The position numbers were made by a program, and so were the translations under genes. From a virus (Duplodnaviria; Heunggongvirae; Uroviricota; Caudoviricetes), in the IMG/VR virus record IMGVR_UViG_3300014890_000017: DNA of 10,075 nucleotides; one strand, 5' to 3'. Every line of letters begins with the position of its first letter. Positions within the stretch are counted from its first letter, which is position 1. The notes beneath the pieces were generated by a model. It had not been told where the DNA came from. It made no database searches and was given only the letters and a program-made list of their open reading frames with translations. Positions 4,496 through 9,141 of this stretch are shown here, in pieces.

Positions 4496-4791
4496 GCCGC
4501 TTCCCTCTGCCCATCAATCCGATCCGCCAGATCCCAGCGGGCGATAATTGCCATTGCCTCGCGACGGTAGGCATCCATCAGTTCTTCGAACTCAGGGCTG
4601 TCTTTAGCAGCCTCCAGTACTTCCTGACGAACGCCTTTGCCTGTTACAACGTCGAAAGTTGAGGACAGTTGATGAAGTCGGATGCTCTCAATCAGTTCAA
4701 CTTGTCGGTCATATAGCTGTTCTGACAGGCGGTAGTCCTTATCGAATGCCAGCATGATTTTTTGAAGATTTTTCTGCTGATTAACGTTCAT
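4492..4791 (-). CDS. Hypothetical protein (about 100 aa), immediately upstream of and coupled to the exonuclease
   Basis: ATG at 4791 preceded by GGGAGGG; ATGA overlap with the exonuclease start at 4495. No family recognised; occupies the position of Gam-like host-nuclease inhibitors. Confidence 0.6.
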   Translation of the reverse strand: MNVNQQKNLQKIMLAFDKDYRLSEQLYDRQVELIESIRLHQLSSTFDVVTGKGVRQEVLEAAKDSPEFEELMDAYRREAMAIIARWDLADRIDGQREAA

Positions 4792-4793
4792 TA

Positions 4794-4946
4794 TCAGCCC
4801 TCCCATATCTCGTTATCGTTGGCCACATCGCGAGCTTCTTTGCTGACGAAAGCCCACTTAATGCCTTCCTGTAAGGTGCGGAACTTCCAGCTCATGAATC
4901 CGCATGCAGTAACGCAGTACCAACCGTTGATGATTTTCCACTGCAT
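4794..4946 (-). CDS. Small Trp-rich ORF (50 aa), first gene of the leftward operon
   Basis: Hand-translated, not in the ORF track because under 60 aa: MQWKIINGWYCVTACGFMSWKFRTLQEGIKWAFVSKEARDVANDNEIWEG. ATG at 4946 preceded by GAGGTAA about 7 nt upstream; stop TGA at 4794-4796, 2 nt before the next gene's ATG. Confidence 0.35.
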   Translation of the reverse strand: MQWKIINGWYCVTACGFMSWKFRTLQEGIKWAFVSKEARDVANDNEIWEG

Positions 4947-4965
4947 AACTTGTTACCTCGGTCTG

Positions 4966-4980
4966 TTACCGTTGAGGTAA
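4966..4980. promoter_or_regulatory. Operator-like palindrome TTACC-GTTGA-GGTAA (leftward promoter, downstream site)
   Basis: Perfect 5+5+5 inverted repeat read from sequence; an extra TTACC half-site sits at 4953-4957. Confidence 0.6.
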
Positions 4981-5008
4981 TAATTATGCTTATTTGGTTT
5001 GGTGTCAA
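4980..5008 (-). promoter_or_regulatory. Candidate leftward early promoter (PL-like)
   Basis: Minus strand shows consensus -35 TTGACA (plus 5003-5008) followed by an A/T-rich -10 candidate (CATAAT/ATAATT/TAATTA, plus 4981-4988; spacer 14-16 nt, so exact -10 is uncertain). Flanked by operator palindromes on both sides. Confidence 0.45.
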
Positions 5009-5027
5009 TAGATATGAGTTAAAAAAA

Positions 5028-5042
5028 TTACCCGTAAGGTAA
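5028..5042. promoter_or_regulatory. Operator-like palindrome TTACC-CGTAA-GGTAA (leftward promoter, upstream site)
   Basis: Perfect inverted repeat; centre is 62 bp from the centre of the 4966-4980 site. Confidence 0.6.
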
Positions 5043-5052
5043 TCTATCTGGC

Positions 5053-5077
5053 AATAAAAAAGCCGCCATGAGGCGGC
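5053..5077 (-). terminator. Rho-independent terminator downstream of the repressor gene
   Basis: Stem GCCGCC / GGCGGC with loop ATGA (5062-5077); on the minus strand it is followed by TTTTTTATT (plus AATAAAAAA, 5053-5061). Confidence 0.6.
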
Positions 5078-5099
5078 TTACTTGCTGAAAACTATAGTT

Positions 5100-5684
5100 T
5101 TATTGTTTGCTTTTTTCGTTCTGGTTGATGACAAATTCAATGTAACTTTCGATCTTTGCTTTCTCTGTTTCAGGTAACAATGCGTAGCGCGAGCGGTCAT
5201 AGTTGATAGTTGCAGGGTCGTGCGGGTGAATCAGTAGTTCATATCCGTGACGCCCGAATGCAGATGCAACATTCTCCAGGGTGGAAATGGAAACGCTGAC
5301 CTCATTGTTTAACAGGCGGCTGATTGTCACCTGGGCTACGCCGGATGCGCGGTGAAGTTTTCCCTGTGTTGAAAGGTCGCGGCTTTCGCTCATCCAGCGT
5401 TCCAGGTTGTGAGCCGCCAGCTGACCAATGTCGCTTGGTCCGACAGGCTGAAAACCCTCCTGAGAAAGCGAGCGATCGATATCAAGCCAGTTACGTGGTT
5501 TATTGGCGGCAGCTTCAATTTTTCGTGCAACCTGGTCGCCGATAACCTTCTTGCCAAGAGCCCAGCGGTTTACCAGATTTGCCTGAGTTCCAAGTTTTTC
5601 TGCCATCCGCGTCTGAACACCATTGAATTCACGGTCGATCAAGTCGTTGAGATTTTGCCTGCGGACGTCCTGGATACTTTTCAT
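5100..5684 (-). CDS. Prophage repressor candidate with two tandem XRE-type HTH domains (CI-like by position)
   Basis: 194 aa; HTH-like segments NGVQTRMAEKLGTQANLVNRWALGKK and LHRASGVAQVTISRLLNNEVSVSISTLENVASAFG; divergent from a Cro-like gene across an operator-rich intergenic region; no LexA/S24 peptidase-like motif recognised. Confidence 0.7.
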   Translation of the reverse strand: MKSIQDVRRQNLNDLIDREFNGVQTRMAEKLGTQANLVNRWALGKKVIGDQVARKIEAAANKPRNWLDIDRSLSQEGFQPVGPSDIGQLAAHNLERWMSESRDLSTQGKLHRASGVAQVTISRLLNNEVSVSISTLENVASAFGRHGYELLIHPHDPATINYDRSRYALLPETEKAKIESYIEFVINQNEKSKQ

Positions 5685-5739
5685 TTTCTGGAAAATCGCC
5701 TCATATATGAATCAGTAGATGATTCAATTTAAAGCAATA

Positions 5740-5754
5740 TTACCCAACAGGTAA
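5740..5754. promoter_or_regulatory. Operator-like palindrome TTACC-CAACA-GGTAA (divergent region)
   Basis: Perfect inverted repeat in the repressor/cro intergenic region; a degenerate adjacent site gcACC-TCATA-GGTAA lies at 5757-5771. Confidence 0.6.
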
Positions 5755-5784
5755 ATGCACCTCATAGGTAACTATCCTTGATTT

Positions 5785-5813
5785 TTGTTACCTTATGGGT
5801 GAATATTTATTAT
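5785..5813 (+). promoter_or_regulatory. Candidate rightward early promoter (PR-like)
   Basis: -35 TTGTTA (5785-5790), 17-bp spacer, -10 TATTAT (5808-5813); the 5788-5802 operator lies within the spacer. Confidence 0.5.
5788..5802. promoter_or_regulatory. Operator-like palindrome TTACC-TTATG-GGTgA (one mismatch)
   Basis: Near-perfect copy of the TTACC-N5-GGTAA motif overlapping the PR-like promoter; centre 48 bp from the 5740-5754 site. Confidence 0.5.
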
Positions 5814-5838
5814 CTGAAATAAATATCAGGCAATAGCT

Positions 5839-6069
5839 ATGAGCGATAACGGACATTTCGATTTCAAAAAGCACTGGCTTGCACTTACTCCGGATGAGCG
5901 TGAAGCCTTCGCACAGGAAGCCGGAACGACGAGTCACTATATCCAGACTCACTTAACAGGTAAGCGCAAAATGCCAGGTAAAGTATTGATGAATGGGCTT
6001 TTTAAAGCCTGTAAAACAAGACAATGGCTGCGCTCAAAAGCAGAACTGGCATACTTCTTCTACTCATGA
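5839..6069 (+). CDS. Cro-like small HTH regulator (Cro/CI-type, YdaS-like)
   Basis: 76 aa; first gene rightward of the repressor; segment EAFAQEAGTTSHYIQTHLTGKRKMP is HTH-like, resembling Cro/cII-type DNA-binding helices. Confidence 0.65.
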   Translation: MSDNGHFDFKKHWLALTPDEREAFAQEAGTTSHYIQTHLTGKRKMPGKVLMNGLFKACKTRQWLRSKAELAYFFYS

Positions 6070-6090
6070 TATCCAGCTACAACCCTCTGT

Positions 6091-6118
6091 AGACCGCCAC
6101 CCGGCGGTCTTTTCATAT
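6091..6118 (+). terminator. Rho-independent terminator after the cro-like gene (tR1-like position)
   Basis: 8-bp stem AGACCGCC / GGCGGTCT with loop ACCC (6091-6110) followed by TTTCATATCT. Confidence 0.55.
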
Positions 6119-6219
6119 CTATTCGTACCTCAAAGGTAATAAATAACCAAATCTGGTTGATCTTTTTTTTGTGTCAGCACAAAATGACCGTAATCCCAAT
6201 ACTAATAACAGGGCTTACC

Positions 6220-6420
6220 ATGGAAATCATTACACGTATTGATGCCGCAAAGCGCGGACTTAAACGCTACTACACCGGAAAACCATGTAAGCACGGACAT
6301 GACAGTGAACGCTGGGTTTACAACGGACACTGTGTTGAGTGCACCATGGAATCAAACCGTCGTATCAGGGCAGAGATTAAGCAGATCATGATTAATTCCT
6401 CCCCACAACATTCAAGCTGA
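6220..6420 (+). CDS. Small zinc-ribbon protein (66 aa) in the cII position
   Basis: ATG at 6220 (MEIITRIDAAKRG...) chosen over upstream TTG/ATG starts that lack an SD; Cys/His cluster CKHGH ... CVEC suggests a zinc ribbon. Function unknown. Confidence 0.5.
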   Translation: MEIITRIDAAKRGLKRYYTGKPCKHGHDSERWVYNGHCVECTMESNRRIRAEIKQIMINSSPQHSS

Positions 6421-6435
6421 TAGCGGAGATTAATC

Positions 6436-7251
6436 ATGAGCAGACATGCAACAGATTGGGCCTGGGAGACAGATCCAGGTAGCTCGTCATTAAAGCTCAT
6501 ACTGCTCTCGATGGCTGACAGAGCCGATGAATATAACCTCTGCTACCCCAGCATAGAACGCCTCGTTAAAGACACTTGCCTGAATAAAAAAACCGTGCAG
6601 GCCGGGCTTATATCGCTCATGAAAATGGGGCTTATTTCAGATACCGGAGAGAGAAAGGGAGCGACGAAAAGAGTGCGGGTTTTCTCTCTTAATATAACCA
6701 AAAACGGGAACATTAAAGGCAACCGGGAAGGGGGTAATGGACCCGAAAACGGTAATGTTACCGAAAACGGGAATATACCCAAAAACGGGATGTTGAATGA
6801 TCCCAAAAACGGGATGTTGAATGATCCCAAAAACGGGATCCAGAACCAGTCATATAACCAGTCATTTAACCAAGAGAGGGAGAGCAGGACAAAAAGCGGG
6901 GATTCTGTGCCTCATGACCCCGGCGCAAACAACGCCGTGATGAATAACTTTGTTCCTCCTGGTGGGCCAGGGCAATTAGGCAAATTTGTCATGCATGAAC
7001 AATGGCAGCCATCAGATGACTTTCTTCGGAAAAGCTCATTGCAGGGGATCTACCTGGACAGTCTGCCAACGGCACAGGAACTTGCAGAGTTCAGAATTTA
7101 CTGGATGGCTGAGGGTAAGGCATACCATCAGGCACAGTGGGAGCAGAAGCTGGCAAGGCGGCTGCAGATTAGCAGACAGAAGCAATCAACATTACCTGAT
7201 AACAACGTTCCGCACTGGAACAGCCCTGAAGCATGGGAGGATTTCTTGTGA
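6436..7251 (+). CDS. Replication initiator, lambda O-like (N-terminal HTH, internal ori iterons, DnaT-like C-terminus)
   Basis: 271 aa; GGAG SD 7 nt upstream of the ATG; N-terminal HTH-like region (SLKLILLSMADRADEYNLCYPSIERLVKDTCLNKKTVQAGL); low-complexity NG-rich linker encoded by a DNA direct-repeat array; immediately precedes and overlaps (GTGA) a lambda-P homologue. Confidence 0.75.
   Translation: MSRHATDWAWETDPGSSSLKLILLSMADRADEYNLCYPSIERLVKDTCLNKKTVQAGLISLMKMGLISDTGERKGATKRVRVFSLNITKNGNIKGNREGGNGPENGNVTENGNIPKNGMLNDPKNGMLNDPKNGIQNQSYNQSFNQERESRTKSGDSVPHDPGANNAVMNNFVPPGGPGQLGKFVMHEQWQPSDDFLRKSSLQGIYLDSLPTAQELAEFRIYWMAEGKAYHQAQWEQKLARRLQISRQKQSTLPDNNVPHWNSPEAWEDFL
6696..6850. repeat. Iteron array (putative origin of replication) inside the O-like gene
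   Basis: Six copies of the core AAAACGG(G/T)A at 6701, 6746, 6764, 6782, 6806 and 6830, including two perfect tandem 24-bp repeats CCCAAAAACGGGATGTTGAATGAT (6778-6801 and 6802-6825). Confidence 0.7.
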
Positions 7252-8033
7252 ACAACGTTTTTACCGCGATACAAAACCGTGACGGAGAAGCCCTTTCTCG
7301 CATGTCAGGTTATGAGCATCAGTACGTCAACAATGACAATGTGGTGAACATGTCAGCAGAGAGGCTTGTTGATGCCCTTTTTAAACAGCTGAAACAATTG
7401 TTTCCGGCGGCAGTGGTAACCAACCTGAAGACGCCAGAGCAGGAAGTTGCTGCAAAACAGCAGTGGATTGCTGCGTTTGCCGAAGGGGGGATCCGAACCC
7501 GTGAACAGGTTTCTGCTGGTATGCGCCACGCCCGCGCCAGTGAATCTCCGTTCTGGCCGTCGCCTGGGCAATTCATCAAGTGGTGTAAAGACAGCAAGAT
7601 GGTTCTTGGCGTCACCATTGACGATGTGATGGCGGAGTTTCACCGGTACAGCAAGGAAAAAAGTTTATATCCTGGTGGTCCCGAAAGATTCCCGTGGCGA
7701 CATCCGGTTATGTACTGGGTCGTATGTGATACCCGCCGTGCAATGTATCAGCGCCAGCTTAGCGAGATTGAGGTTGAGAAACACGCGCGCAGGCTGCTCG
7801 ATGATTGGGCGAAAAAGGTGGCTTCCGGACAGCAGATACCCGATCCGGTGATCAGCATACAGGCAAAGCCAGAGCCCATGAGTACGCCTCCGGACACAGG
7901 GAGAGATGTTTACCATCCACCAGGGCAAAGTTTCGGGTGCATGCCTAACGCCGCCACCCTGGGGGGAATAACACCGGCGCAGTGGCTGATGGAGGAATAC
8001 AGGCGAGGAAAGGCGGCAGGATTTATCAAGTAA
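7248..8033 (+). CDS. Replication protein P homologue (DnaB helicase loader)
   Basis: Segment WIAAFAEGGIRTREQVSAGMRHARASESPFWPSPGQFIKWCKD aligns from memory with lambda P (WVLAFRENGITTMEQVNAGMRVARRQNRPFLPSPGQFVAWCRE). GTG at 7248 with GGAGG 7 nt upstream preferred over the ORF-track ATG at 7233; GTGA overlap with the O-like stop. Confidence 0.85.
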   Translation: MNNVFTAIQNRDGEALSRMSGYEHQYVNNDNVVNMSAERLVDALFKQLKQLFPAAVVTNLKTPEQEVAAKQQWIAAFAEGGIRTREQVSAGMRHARASESPFWPSPGQFIKWCKDSKMVLGVTIDDVMAEFHRYSKEKSLYPGGPERFPWRHPVMYWVVCDTRRAMYQRQLSEIEVEKHARRLLDDWAKKVASGQQIPDPVISIQAKPEPMSTPPDTGRDVYHPPGQSFGCMPNAATLGGITPAQWLMEEYRRGKAAGFIK

Positions 8034-8038
8034 TACCA

Positions 8039-8058
8039 GCGCGATAGCGCATTTTTTT
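8039..8058 (+). terminator. Weak candidate terminator after the P-like gene
   Basis: Short stem GCGC-GATA-GCGC (8039-8050) followed by A + TTTTTTT (8052-8058); the stem is only 4 bp. Confidence 0.3.
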
Positions 8059-8070
8059 ACGTCTATATGA

Positions 8071-8085
8071 TTACCTGGAAGGTAA
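8071..8085. promoter_or_regulatory. Operator-like palindrome TTACC-TGGAA-GGTAA (distal promoter, upstream site)
   Basis: Perfect inverted repeat; centre is 62 bp from the 8133-8147 site, the same spacing as the leftward-promoter pair. Confidence 0.55.
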
Positions 8086-8104
8086 TAAAATATTCTAATC
8101 TCTA

Positions 8105-8133
8105 TTGATTTCATGTCTTATGTGGTTTTTAAT
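8105..8133 (+). promoter_or_regulatory. Candidate promoter for the distal rightward operon
   Basis: -35 TTGATT (8105-8110), 17-bp spacer, -10 TTTAAT (8128-8133); operators lie upstream of the -35 and across the -10/+1. Confidence 0.45.
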
Positions 8134-8147
8134 TACCTGAGGGGTAA
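8133..8147. promoter_or_regulatory. Operator-like palindrome TTACC-TGAGG-GGTAA overlapping the -10/+1 and the SD of the next gene
   Basis: Perfect inverted repeat ending 3 nt before the ATG at 8151; its central GAGGGG also serves as the ribosome-binding site. Confidence 0.55.
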
Positions 8148-8150
8148 ATC

Positions 8151-8498
8151 ATGAGAAAACAGATACAGGCTCTTGGTCGACTCAAAACAGGCCAGATGAA
8201 CAAAACAGAATCTGCGTATTGCCAGCACCTTGAGCTGCGTAAACGTGCAGGGGAAATCGCCTGGTATCGATTCGAGGGTATCAAGCTGCGGTTAGCTAAT
8301 AACACGTTCTATACGCCCGATTTCGCTGTGATGCTCGCCACCGGCGAGATGGAGCTGCACGAAGTGAAAGGGGGATTCTGGACCGATGACGCCAGAGTGA
8401 AAACCAAAGTCGCCGCAGATCAGTATCCGTTCCGAATCATCGGGGTAACGGTTAAACCAAAGAAAGCAGGTGGTGGCTGGAACATCGAAGAGTTCTGA
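8151..8498 (+). CDS. DUF1064 / VRR-NUC-like small PD-(D/E)XK-fold protein
   Basis: 115 aa; LELRKRAGEI ... YTPDFAV ... ELHEVKGG matches the conserved pattern of phage DUF1064/VRR-NUC nuclease-like proteins (D ... E-x-K). Confidence 0.65.
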   Translation: MRKQIQALGRLKTGQMNKTESAYCQHLELRKRAGEIAWYRFEGIKLRLANNTFYTPDFAVMLATGEMELHEVKGGFWTDDARVKTKVAADQYPFRIIGVTVKPKKAGGGWNIEEF

Positions 8499-8559
8499 AT
8501 CGACGATCTATTTAGTTATCAATGTAATCAATAAGTTATGTGGATAAGCGAGGGTAAAG

Positions 8560-9141
8560 ATGGAAAGTAATATCAAAGGGTTAGTTGCCGCCGGGCATGA
8601 GATGGCTTCGGAACTGAAAGCAGAATGTGGTGCCGTTGATATGCGTAGTGTGGCAAAGCTGATCAGCGATTTGGCAACGCAACTGGAAGTGCAACTGGTG
8701 CGTGCTAATGCGCTGGCAGCGGAGAATGCAAAGCTGAAGACAGCACATCCTCAACCATTCGGACCTGAAATGATGAAGGCTCTTGATGCGTATGAGAAGT
8801 ATCAGGATGAAGTGCCGGAGGCTGGAATGCTTGATGCATTTTTCATCTTGCGCGACAGCATCCGTGTTGAAACCCCAGCCACCGACGCTTTCCTGGCTGA
8901 AGTACGTGCGGAGGCTCGCAACGAGGGGATTAACTATACCGCAAGCCGTCTTGCTGCTGCTTTCAACCACGGATTTATCAATAAGTCTTTACGTGAAGTT
9001 TTCGACGTTACACGCATGATTCTGTCAGCGAAAGAAGAGTTGGCTAATGAACCGCACCCGATTGATGGCCTGTCCGGTGAATATGCGGAGAAATCCCTTG
9101 AAGAATGGGCGGAACAGATTCGCAAAGGAGCTGACAAGTGA
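8560..9141 (+). CDS. Hypothetical phage protein (193 aa)
   Basis: ATG at 8560 with GAGGGT SD 4-5 nt upstream; acidic, alpha-helical-looking composition; no family recognised. Confidence 0.55.
   Translation: MESNIKGLVAAGHEMASELKAECGAVDMRSVAKLISDLATQLEVQLVRANALAAENAKLKTAHPQPFGPEMMKALDAYEKYQDEVPEAGMLDAFFILRDSIRVETPATDAFLAEVRAEARNEGINYTASRLAAAFNHGFINKSLREVFDVTRMILSAKEELANEPHPIDGLSGEYAEKSLEEWAEQIRKGADK

What the first reader, a model, noticed from the sequence alone, without database searches (positions are those of the whole stretch)
8034..8150. A third operator-controlled promoter between the replication genes and the distal module
Two further perfect palindromes (8071-8085 and 8133-8147) bracket a TTGATT-17-TTTAAT promoter directly upstream of the DUF1064 gene, with the same 62-bp centre-to-centre spacing as the leftward-promoter pair. 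The downstream operator spans the -10/+1 and contains the gene's SD (GAGGGG). In canonical lambdoids, genes beyond P are reached by antiterminated read-through from PR, not by their own repressor-controlled promoter, so this suggests the same DNA-binding protein directly gates a separate downstream operon.
Basis: partly seen in the sequence, partly recalled or inferred. Interest (0 to 1): 0.65.

Follow-up and report, generated by a model that had tools for sequence, protein, structure and literature searches.

The report
Repressor-gated promoter after phage replication genes
The two inverted repeats are very probably real binding sites for the prophage's main repressor, flanking a promoter that restarts early transcription after a terminator; this is the normal design of epsilon15/phiV10-type phages, and one of the two sites is already annotated in the epsilon15 record.

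Summary
TTACC-N5-GGTAA occurs at 8071-8085 and 8133-8147, 62 bp centre to centre. The two sites flank TTGATT(8105-8110)-17-TTTAAT(8128-8133), just upstream of the ATG at 8151. The motif has 7 hits in the window against 0.17 expected.

The window is a phiV10-like (Uetakevirus) prophage at guaA, not a classical lambdoid. Its repressor (5100-5684, minus strand) is a full-length homologue of Salmonella phage SPC32H Rep (PDB 5D50). The cassette [quoted passage not shown] aligns without gaps to the PL cassette. It is present, always at 62 bp, in 101 of 106 related Rep-encoding loci, whatever the flanking genes.

In 68 regions retrieved without reference to operators, the half-sites and both hexamers are invariant while neighbouring bases vary freely. 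The epsilon15 GenBank record already marks the homologue of 8071-8085 as a repressor-binding site.

Most likely mechanism: Rep, probably one tetramer bridging both sites, shuts a re-initiation promoter (P3) for the distal early operon. Caveats: the -10 in this lineage lacks the key A, the leader would be only about 10 nt, and nothing has been tested experimentally. It is a new member of a known kind, of modest interest.

The parts
8039..8058 (+). Weak intrinsic terminator after the P gene: GCGC-GATA-GCGC, then A and T7.
   Evidence: The 4-bp hairpin gives -6.5 kcal/mol in the epsilon15 homologue, where it folds alone; the window fold of -8.4 kcal/mol includes extra outer pairs. phiV10 annotates the homologous site as a putative rho-independent terminator. 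GCGC-N4-GCGC-A/G-T7 is kept in divergent cassettes while the loop varies. Entropy is 0.08 bits.
8071..8085 (.). O1, the promoter-distal Rep operator (TTACC TGGAA GGTAA), centred about 62 bp upstream of the expected start.
   Evidence: Exact motif match. Half-sites are invariant and the centre hypervariable in 68 independently retrieved regions. The homologue in epsilon15 (35906-35922) is annotated protein_bind 'repressor'.
8105..8110 (+). -35 hexamer TTGATT, within the conserved CTATTGA.
   Evidence: Entropy 0.02 bits. CTATTGA is shared with PL (CTATTGACA) at the same distance from both operators. P3 ranks 11th in the window by position-weight scoring.
8116..8127 (+). 'TGTGG box' TCTTATGTGGTT inside the promoter spacer; a second recurring motif of unknown role.
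   Evidence: YCNTWTRTGGWT recurs upstream of the head, tail-fibre and lysis genes and at P3 in phiV10, and at the head, lysis, P2 and P3 regions in epsilon15. The pattern was derived after seeing the sites, so the statistics are partly circular.
8128..8133 (+). -10 hexamer TTTAAT, weak because position 2 is T rather than A.
   Evidence: Invariant in the lineage. The consensus scan skipped it because of the T at position 2. Salmonella relatives have TTGAAA-18-TAAATT, which scores as high as PL.
8133..8147 (.). O2, the promoter-proximal Rep operator (TTACC TGAGG GGTAA), covering the last -10 base, the expected start and the ribosome-binding site.
   Evidence: Exact motif match. Half-sites are essentially invariant. 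The junction is the same as at PL and P2: the last T of the -10 is the first T of TTACC. This site is not annotated in epsilon15.
8151..8498 (+). First gene of the P3 unit: DUF1064 / Holliday-junction-resolvase-like nuclease.
   Evidence: Pfam DUF1064 and PHROG 190. In epsilon15 and Tyrion a RuvC-type resolvase occupies the same slot behind the same cassette.
5100..5684 (-). Rep, the prophage repressor presumed to bind all these sites.
   Evidence: Full-length match to SPC32H Rep, PDB 5D50, E=3.5e-42. The putative recognition-helix motif N-L-V/I-N/S-R-W is kept across homologues of 41-100% identity.
4966..5042 (-). PL cassette: operators 4966-4980 and 5028-5042, -35 TTGACA 5003-5008, -10 AATTAT 4980-4985. 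It is preceded on the minus strand by the rep terminator at 5060-5079.
   Evidence: top-scoring promoter in the window; gap-free alignment with the P3 cassette.
5740..5813 (.). OR region: operators 5740-5754 and 5788-5802, and PR TTGTTA-17-TATTAT at 5785-5813.
   Evidence: rank 2.
6091..6185 (+). P2 cassette after the cro-like gene: terminator 6091-6115, operator 6125-6139 (one mismatch), TTGATC (6157-6162)-17-CAAAAT (6180-6185), then the half-site TGACC at 6185-6189.
   Evidence: -15 kcal/mol; rank 4. It is conserved in epsilon15.

Best explanation
8034-8150 is a self-contained regulatory cassette of a phiV10/epsilon15-type temperate phage.

Proposed sequence of events:
1. A weak terminator ends the replication-gene transcript.
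2. A sigma-70 promoter (P3) re-initiates transcription into the distal early genes. These run from the resolvase-like gene, through the Eae/Ead-like genes, to a PHROG-536 regulator just before the terminase genes.
3. In the lysogen, two operators of the SPC32H-type repressor Rep keep P3 shut. O2 covers the -10 end, the start site and the ribosome-binding site. O1 lies over the A/T-rich region upstream of the -35.
4. The operators sit 62 bp apart, about six helical turns. Rep is a tetramer with two DNA-binding units, so one tetramer probably holds both sites and wraps the promoter DNA between them, exactly as at PL.
5. Induction would follow LexA-controlled synthesis of the small antirepressor Ant, which takes Rep off the DNA.

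What is shown: the motif, its geometry, its conservation, and the homology of the repressor. What is inferred: that Rep occupies these two sites, that P3 is active, and that the DNA is looped.
For: - Motif enrichment: 7 hits against 0.17 expected in the window. There are 14-18 sites per 39-kb genome against about 1.2 expected in phiV10, epsilon15 and SPC32H, most of them in intergenic control regions.
- The P3 cassette aligns without gaps to the PL cassette from the T-run to O2.
- In 68 distinct regions retrieved through the DUF1064 protein rather than the operators, entropy is 0.00 bits for three of the four half-sites and 0.04 for the O2 right half. It is 0.02 for the -35 and 0.00 for the -10. 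By contrast it is 1.18 and 0.59 bits for the two operator centres and 0.59 for the gap between terminator and O1.
- 101 of 106 non-redundant Rep-encoding loci carry a pair 1.5-4.5 kb to the right of rep, all at exactly 62 bp. This holds although the replication module varies from 1.6 to 2.7 kb and the next gene is either DUF1064 or RuvC-like.
- The epsilon15 record annotates the O1 homologue as a repressor-binding site.
- Rep homology to PDB 5D50. Rep is described as binding DNA as a tetramer whose DNA-binding pairs come from different dimers (PMC9638917). It has a looping-type tetramerisation domain, with its domain pairs about 100 Angstrom apart (PMC9986798).
- Position-weight promoter ranks in the window are PL 1, PR 2, P2 4 and P3 11. 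In epsilon15 and SPC32H, P3 ranks 6 and 5, equal in score to PL.
- phiV10 has an Ant homologue (88% identical) preceded by a LexA box.
Against: - In this lineage the -10 is TTTAAT or TTAATT, lacking the A at position 2 that sigma-70 normally needs. P3 ranks only 53rd in the whole phiV10 genome.
- A start about 7 nt after the -10 would leave a leader of only about 10 nt, beginning at the ribosome-binding site.
- One relative (L074) has lost the 44 bp between the operators and keeps terminator, O1, O2 and ATG. The promoter is therefore dispensable at least there.
- The terminator is weak (a 4-bp stem), so read-through from upstream may supply much of the expression.
- A second conserved motif (8116-8127), shared with late promoters, hints at an additional regulator.
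- No binding or transcript data exist for this site. The primary SPC32H and epsilon15 papers could not be read.
Confidence: 0.68

Rival explanations
1. The two sites bind Rep, but in this lineage there is no useful local promoter. They act as a roadblock and terminator reinforcement against read-through from PR/P2 into the distal genes, or as anchors for long-range loops to OR and OL.
For: - Weak -10 and a very short predicted leader.
- The sites lie directly behind a weak terminator.
- L074 keeps both operators without the promoter.
- Rep is a tetramer with a looping-type domain.
- OR lies about 2.3 kb away.
Against: - The -35 and -10 hexamers are invariant while nearby bases vary.
- The geometry is identical to the strong PL promoter.
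- In Salmonella relatives the same cassette has a promoter scoring as high as PL.
- A roadblock would not need a 62-bp pair flanking hexamers.
Confidence: 0.2
2. The sites are mainly targets of another phage regulator that shares or overlaps the motif, such as the Cro-like protein (5839-6069) or the factor that recognises the TGTGG box. On this view P3 is chiefly a lytic-phase, activator-dependent middle promoter.
For: - The 76-aa protein matches PHROG 35 'transcriptional repressor'.
- The TGTGG box is shared with the head, tail-fibre and lysis promoters.
- The P3 unit ends in a PHROG-536 regulator.
- A weak -10 fits dependence on an activator.
Against: - The half-sites are those of OL and OR next to rep, and are annotated as repressor sites in epsilon15.
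- Cro-type proteins usually share the repressor's operators, so this adds to the main model rather than replacing it.
- The box statistics are post hoc.
Confidence: 0.08
3. The repeats have no regulatory role. They are chance palindromes, or a conserved linker kept only because it promotes recombination between phage modules.
For: - The cassette sits at a mosaic junction: different replication genes upstream and different nucleases downstream.
- The stretch from the terminator tail to the O1 centre is unusually variable.
Against: - Chance is excluded.
- A recombination linker would not keep 5+5 bases and two hexamers invariant while letting the bases between them vary, nor keep an exact 62-bp spacing.
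Confidence: 0.03

Closest known systems
Repressor-binding sites annotated in Salmonella phage epsilon15 (NC_004775.2), in particular the one at 35906-35922; Rep/Ant switch of phage SPC32H (PDB 5D50, 5D4Z)
   Same: - Same phage genus and homologous repressor.
- Same 15-17-bp operator, ATTACC-N5-GGTAAT.
- Same position: after the replication genes and a GCGC-N4-GCGC-T7 terminator, before a resolvase-type gene.
- Same 62-bp partner site and same PL design.
   Different: - The epsilon15 record marks only the upstream site and no promoter. The downstream site, the 62-bp pairing and the parallel with PL are not annotated.
- The flanking genes differ here (lambda-P-type loader and DUF1064, against a DnaT-like gene and RuvC-like gene).
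- The -10 is weaker in the E. coli lineage.
- As far as I could read, Rep binding has been studied in SPC32H but not at this site.
Rco of Bacillus plasmid pLS20: a tetrameric repressor looping DNA between two operators 75 bp apart
   Same: Both have an N-terminal helix-turn-helix domain plus a C-terminal looping-type tetramerisation domain. Two operators less than 100 bp apart embrace a promoter, and an antirepressor partner relieves repression (PMC9986798).
   Different: Rco operators are arrays of direct repeats, whereas these are single inverted repeats. Rco looping involves several tetramers. There is no sequence similarity in the operators. Looping by Rep is inferred, not shown.
Phage lambda early right operon (tR2 terminator and nin region after P, reached by N antitermination from PR)
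   Same: The gene order is the same: repressor, cro-like gene, replication genes, terminator, then nin-like genes including a resolvase-type nuclease. The repressor has operators at PL and PR.
   Different: No N-like or Q-like protein was recognised by Pfam or PHROGs. Terminators are followed by their own repressor-controlled promoters (P2, P3) instead of being read through. The repressor is not cleaved by RecA but is removed by an antirepressor (SPC32H system; my knowledge of that literature).
Dispersed-operator repressors: P1 C1 (many operators across the genome) and mycobacteriophage L5 gp71 'stoperators' (from my own knowledge, not checked here)
   Same: One repressor directly controls many separate transcription units through sites spread over the whole genome, rather than through a single switch plus a cascade.
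   Different: The proteins and operator sequences are unrelated. L5 stoperators are asymmetric and act by blocking elongation. Here the sites are symmetric and positioned over promoters.

Membership tests
Uetakevirus (epsilon15/SPC32H/phiV10) Rep regulon operator | The genome encodes a Rep homologue: an N-terminal helix-turn-helix domain, a middle dimerisation domain and a C-terminal tetramerisation domain. | tested here: met
   Window 5100-5684 (minus strand) matches 5D50 chain A over residues 1-190, E=3.5e-42.
Uetakevirus (epsilon15/SPC32H/phiV10) Rep regulon operator | The site matches the operator consensus (A)TTACC-N5-GGTAA(T) also found at OL and OR beside rep. | tested here: met
   Both sites are exact matches. 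The same motif occurs at 4966, 5028, 5740 and 5788. The epsilon15 annotated sites have the same sequence type.
Uetakevirus (epsilon15/SPC32H/phiV10) Rep regulon operator | The site is homologous in position to an annotated repressor site in a reference genome. | tested here: met
   epsilon15 protein_bind 'repressor' at 35906-35922 lies in the same cassette: terminator, site, CTATTGA, site, ATG.
Uetakevirus (epsilon15/SPC32H/phiV10) Rep regulon operator | The half-sites are under purifying selection. | tested here: met
   Entropy is 0.00-0.04 bits in the half-sites against 0.59-1.18 bits in the centres, in 68 regions not selected on operators.
Uetakevirus (epsilon15/SPC32H/phiV10) Rep regulon operator | Rep physically binds the site and represses the adjacent promoter. 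| not testable with these tools
   This needs gel-shift or footprinting assays, ChIP and reporter assays. No accessible paper reports it for this site.
Uetakevirus (epsilon15/SPC32H/phiV10) Rep regulon operator | The operators change together with the repressor's specificity in heteroimmune relatives. | tested here: inconclusive
   All Rep homologues found (41-100% identity) keep the putative recognition-helix motif and the same half-sites, so no contrast was available.
Sigma-70 promoter | -35 and -10 hexamers with a 16-18-bp spacer, including A at -10 position 2 and T at position 6. | tested here: inconclusive
   TTGATT-17-TTTAAT matches 9 of 12 positions but has T at position 2, so the consensus scan rejected it. 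It ranks 11th in the window by position-weight scoring. Relatives have TTGAAA-18-TAAATT, with the A, ranking 5-6 genome-wide.
Lambda-type antitermination-dependent early operon | An N-like or Q-like antiterminator, with distal genes expressed only by read-through from PR. | tested here: not met
   No such family was found among the early proteins tested. Terminator-plus-promoter cassettes lie after cro and after P. Absence of a recognisable homologue is not proof of absence.
Known RNA elements (Rfam) | A match to a curated RNA family in 4700-8700. | tested here: not met
   There were only two sub-threshold hits, near 5000-5150, and nothing at 8034-8150.

The most novel reading that the evidence does not exclude
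The cassette may be more than an operator pair. It could be a portable 'terminator, O, P, O' module, duplicated at PL and P3, in which two things go beyond ordinary repression.
- A second regulator would recognise the TGTGG box (8116-8127). That box is shared with the head, tail-fibre and lysis promoters, which would tie P3 into the late-gene circuit, possibly through the regulator encoded at the end of the P3 unit as a feed-forward or autoregulatory loop.
- The non-contacted bases of the distal operator and its terminator-side flank may be under diversifying pressure, or be a local mutation or gene-conversion hotspot, which would set phage-specific repression thresholds.
Probability: 0.15. 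Interest if true: 0.5.

Novelty: new member of a known kind. Interest (0 to 1): 0.3.

Why it matters
The cassette shows how this common group of E. coli and Salmonella prophages organises early transcription without a recognisable antiterminator. About a tenth of the complete E. coli genomes searched (562 of 5426) carry a match to this region.

The early right arm is cut into terminator-insulated units (PR, P2, P3), each restarted by its own promoter and each held off directly by the same tetrameric repressor. That gives tight silencing of the genes leading to the late regulator. It also predicts simultaneous, not sequential, derepression when the antirepressor appears.

In practice, the 62-bp operator pair is a ready test bed for DNA looping by SPC32H-type Rep. 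The compact cassette may also be useful to people engineering phiV10-based reporter phages. It does not change current concepts.

Tried and rejected
- Literature: the epsilon15 genome paper, the phiV10 paper and both SPC32H Rep/Ant papers are not held. Text searches for the operator sequence or for Uetakevirus operators found nothing relevant. The ZX5 paper gives no operator or P3 data.
- Covariation test in heteroimmune relatives: the Rep alignment was too diverse for the locus finder. The protein search returned only homologues of at least 52% identity. All Rep relatives in hand use the same half-sites, so the test could not discriminate.
- Leftward promoter AAGACA-16-TAGAAT (8119-8092): it lies in a variable stretch and is absent from the epsilon15/SPC32H cassettes, so I rejected it.
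- Extended -10, TRTG-type and sigma-54 readings of TGTGGTTTTT: no register gives a consistent element across lineages. This was checked by hand on the sequences.
- Direct or inverted repeat between the O1 flank and the O1 centre: it appears in a few sequences only, so I dropped it.
- Known RNA families: none.
- The idea that the long complementarity between GCGCATTTTTT and AAAATATGCGCA in other lineages acts as an antiterminator: it would form only after the termination point, and it is absent from this window.

Full report
**What is in the sequence.** Positions 8034-8150 are the 117-bp spacer between a lambda-P-type replication gene (7248-8033, Pfam Phage_lambda_P) and a DUF1064 gene (8151-8498). 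The DUF1064 gene also matches PHROG 190, 'Holliday junction resolvase'. The spacer contains, in order:
- GCGC-GATA-GCGC-A-T7 (8039-8058)
- TTACCTGGAAGGTAA (8071-8085)
- TTGATT (8105-8110)
- a 17-bp spacer
- TTTAAT (8128-8133)
- TTACCTGAGGGGTAA (8133-8147)
- the ATG at 8151

The motif TTACC-N5-GGTAA occurs 7 times in the window at up to one mismatch, against 0.17 expected. The other copies are at 4966 and 5028, 5740 and 5788, and 6125. The 4966/5028 pair also lies 62 bp apart, around the best promoter in the window, the leftward TTGACA-17-AATTAT. The 5740/5788 pair lies between the repressor gene and the cro-like gene. Two small corrections apply: the arms are 5 bp around a non-palindromic centre, and the hexamer coordinates are those given above.

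**What the element belongs to.** The window is 97% identical to phage phiV10. It is 100% identical to a prophage next to guaA in E. coli JNE25-001, and 562 of 5426 complete E. coli genomes carry a match to this region. These are epsilon15-like podoviruses (genus Uetakevirus), not classical lambdoids. The 194-aa protein encoded at 5100-5684 on the minus strand matches Rep of Salmonella phage SPC32H (PDB 5D50) over its full length, E=3.5e-42. phiV10 also encodes a homologue of the SPC32H antirepressor Ant (88% identical) preceded by a LexA box.

**Already annotated in a relative.** The epsilon15 GenBank record carries 'protein_bind, repressor' features at three sites left of its repressor gene. 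It carries further ones before the terminase, head and tail-fibre genes, and one at 35906-35922. That last site is ATTACCAAAAGGGTAAT. It lies behind GCGC-AGTA-GCGC-A-T7 and ahead of CTATTGAAA...TAAATTACCTGAGAGGTAAATCATG, so it is the homologue of window 8071-8085. The second site, the promoter and the 62-bp rule are not annotated there.

My own scan finds 14-18 motif copies per 39-kb genome in phiV10, epsilon15 and SPC32H, against about 1.2 expected. Most of them sit in the intergenic control regions, and in all three genomes there is a pair 62 bp apart after the replication genes.

**Comparative test.** A pattern scan of viral contigs returned more than 120 loci. Stacked, the post-replication cassettes share the following:
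- the terminator stem, with a variable loop
- O1
- CTATTGA
- a T(A/G)TGG element
- an A/T-rich -10
- O2
- the start codon

The upstream gene is either a DnaT-like gene alone or one followed by a P-like gene. The downstream gene is either DUF1064 or a RuvC-type resolvase.

That set was selected on the operators themselves, so I also fetched 80 loci through the DUF1064 protein. In 60-68 distinct sequences, entropy is 0.00 bits for three of the four half-sites and 0.04 for the O2 right half. It is 0.02 for the -35, 0.00 for the -10 and 0.09 for the spacer. By contrast it is 1.18 bits for the O1 centre, 0.59 for the O2 centre and 0.59 for the gap between terminator and O1. Invariant half-sites and hexamers embedded in freely varying bases are the signature of a protein-contacted operator and a used promoter.

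Among 106 non-redundant loci with a Rep gene and enough sequence to its right, 101 have a pair 1.5-4.5 kb downstream, and every one is at exactly 62 bp. One exception is instructive. L074 has lost the 44 bp between the sites and keeps terminator, O1, O2 and ATG.

**Design shared with PL.** The reverse complement of 4944-5085 aligns to 8034-8153 without gaps from the T-run to the second operator. The order is terminator of the preceding gene, distal operator, (T)CTATTGA, -10, then a proximal operator whose first T is the last T of the -10.

The unit after the cro-like gene is a looser version. It has a strong terminator at 6091-6115 (-15 kcal/mol), an operator at 6125-6139 and TTGATC-17-CAAAAT, whose last T starts a half-site TGACC.

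A simple position-weight scan ranks PL 1st, PR 2nd, this P2 4th and P3 11th among about 100,000 placements in the window.

**How strong is the promoter call?** In epsilon15 and SPC32H the cassette reads TTGAAA-18-TAAATT and scores as high as PL, at genome-wide ranks 6 and 5. In the E. coli lineage a single A-to-T difference leaves TTTAAT/TTAATT without the A at position 2. The consensus scan therefore rejected it, and it ranks 53rd in the phiV10 genome.

A start about 7 nt after the -10 falls inside O2 and would give a leader of about 10 nt beginning at the ribosome-binding site. The terminator is weak: a 4-bp GC stem, -6.5 kcal/mol where it folds alone in epsilon15. Read-through therefore probably contributes. 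I conclude that P3 is a genuine but, in this lineage, probably weak or helper-dependent promoter.

**Mechanism.** Secondary accounts of the SPC32H work state that Rep binds DNA as a tetramer, and that the two DNA-binding domains contacting one palindrome come from different dimers. They also state that Ant dismantles the tetramer (PMC9638917). Rep has a looping-type tetramerisation domain like Rco of pLS20, which loops between operators 75 bp apart, and its domain pairs point in opposite directions about 100 Angstrom apart (PMC9986798).

A tetramer thus offers two operator-binding units. Sixty-two base pairs is about six helical turns, which places both operators on one face of the DNA. The simplest model is one tetramer holding O1 and O2, with the promoter wrapped between them. 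O2 blocks open-complex formation and the ribosome-binding site region, and O1 covers the A/T-rich upstream region. This looping step is inference.

The biological logic follows. The early right arm is divided by terminators into PR, P2 and P3 units, each restarted by its own Rep-controlled promoter. No N-like or Q-like antiterminator was recognised. The P3 unit ends in a PHROG-536 transcriptional regulator just before the terminase genes, so silencing P3 keeps the route to late genes closed.

**Rivals.**
- Operators without a working promoter (roadblock or loop anchors). This fits the weak -10 and L074. It does not explain the invariant hexamers or the strong promoter in relatives.
- Control mainly by another regulator. 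This is suggested by a second motif, TCTTATGTGGTT (8116-8127). It recurs upstream of the head, tail-fibre and lysis genes in phiV10, and at the head, lysis and P2 regions in epsilon15. The pattern was defined after seeing the sites, so this is a lead only.
- Chance, or a purely recombinational linker. This is excluded by the statistics and by the pattern of constraint.

**What could not be done.** There are no transcript or binding data. A covariation test failed for lack of relatives with a different specificity, because Rep proteins from 41% to 100% identity all keep the N-L-V/I-N/S-R-W motif, the putative recognition helix, and the same half-sites.

**Verdict.** The finding is correct and its interpretation is supported. 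It describes the normal, partly annotated regulatory architecture of a known phage group. It is a new member of a known kind, of modest interest. Two open side observations remain: the TGTGG box and the hypervariable distal-operator patch.

Noticed in passing
After the cro-like gene come a strong terminator (6091-6115, -15 kcal/mol), the operator GTACCTCAAAGGTAA (6125-6139), TTGATC-17-CAAAAT (6157-6185; 4th-best promoter score in the window) and a half-site TGACC starting on the last T of the -10. It is conserved in epsilon15.
   Followed up: partly
window 8116-8127; L005 3307, 20920, 24738, 35115; L006 2987, 24750, 33749, 35952: A second recurring motif, YCNTWTRTGGWT (near-palindrome CCATATATGG). 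In phiV10 it lies 31-43 bp downstream of a Rep operator at P3 and at the head, tail-fibre and lysis promoters. At the head and tail-fibre promoters it is followed by N5+GGTAA. There are 5 hits against 0.39 expected in phiV10, but the pattern was derived after seeing the sites. It may be the site of an activator or second regulator.
   Followed up: partly
window 8059-8080 and 5033-5048: The stretch from the terminator tail through the centre of the promoter-distal operator is far more variable than its surroundings, at both P3 and PL. There are 26 and 13 different 5-bp centres in 68 sequences. For sequence pairs whose flanks differ by less than 1%, the P3 patch differs by 12%. The half-sites inside it never change, and the OR operators are nearly invariant, centres included. 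The cause is unknown.
   Followed up: partly
L074, about 2665-2740 bp to the right of rep: A natural variant in which the 44 bp carrying the P3 -35 and -10 are missing. O1 and O2 are left 18 bp apart, directly before a RuvC-like gene.
   Followed up: no
window 8151-8498 compared with L003 11988-12452 and L127 9815-10279: The first gene behind the cassette is either a DUF1064 protein (PHROG 190, resolvase-like) or an unrelated RuvC-type Holliday junction resolvase. The same function seems to be kept in the same slot by non-homologous genes, behind an unchanged regulatory cassette.
   Followed up: partly
L003 11924-11936 and most non-E. coli cassettes: In most other lineages O1 is followed by AAAATATGCGCA, which contains the palindrome ATGCGCAT. 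This is complementary to the terminator's 3' arm plus U-tract (GCGCATTTTTT). The window lineage has ATATTCTAATCT instead.
   Followed up: no
window 6690-6881: At least six 18-bp iterons (ATATAACCAAAAACGGGA and variants, spaced 18-24 bp) lie inside the DnaT-like replication initiator gene. They are presumably the phage origin.
   Followed up: no
L005 20543-20837: phiV10 gene p24 encodes a protein 88% identical to the SPC32H antirepressor Ant. It is preceded by a LexA box (CTGTATAAATACACAG), so the E. coli lineage shares the LexA-Ant-Rep induction route.
   Followed up: yes
L108, L026, L015, L056: Unrelated-looking viral contigs carry the same TTACC-N5-GGTAA motif. Two have four copies around a TTGACA...TATATT promoter with a GGAGG ribosome site (Gram-positive style). 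Two have tandem arrays of GGTTACCAAAACGGTAAC.
   Followed up: no
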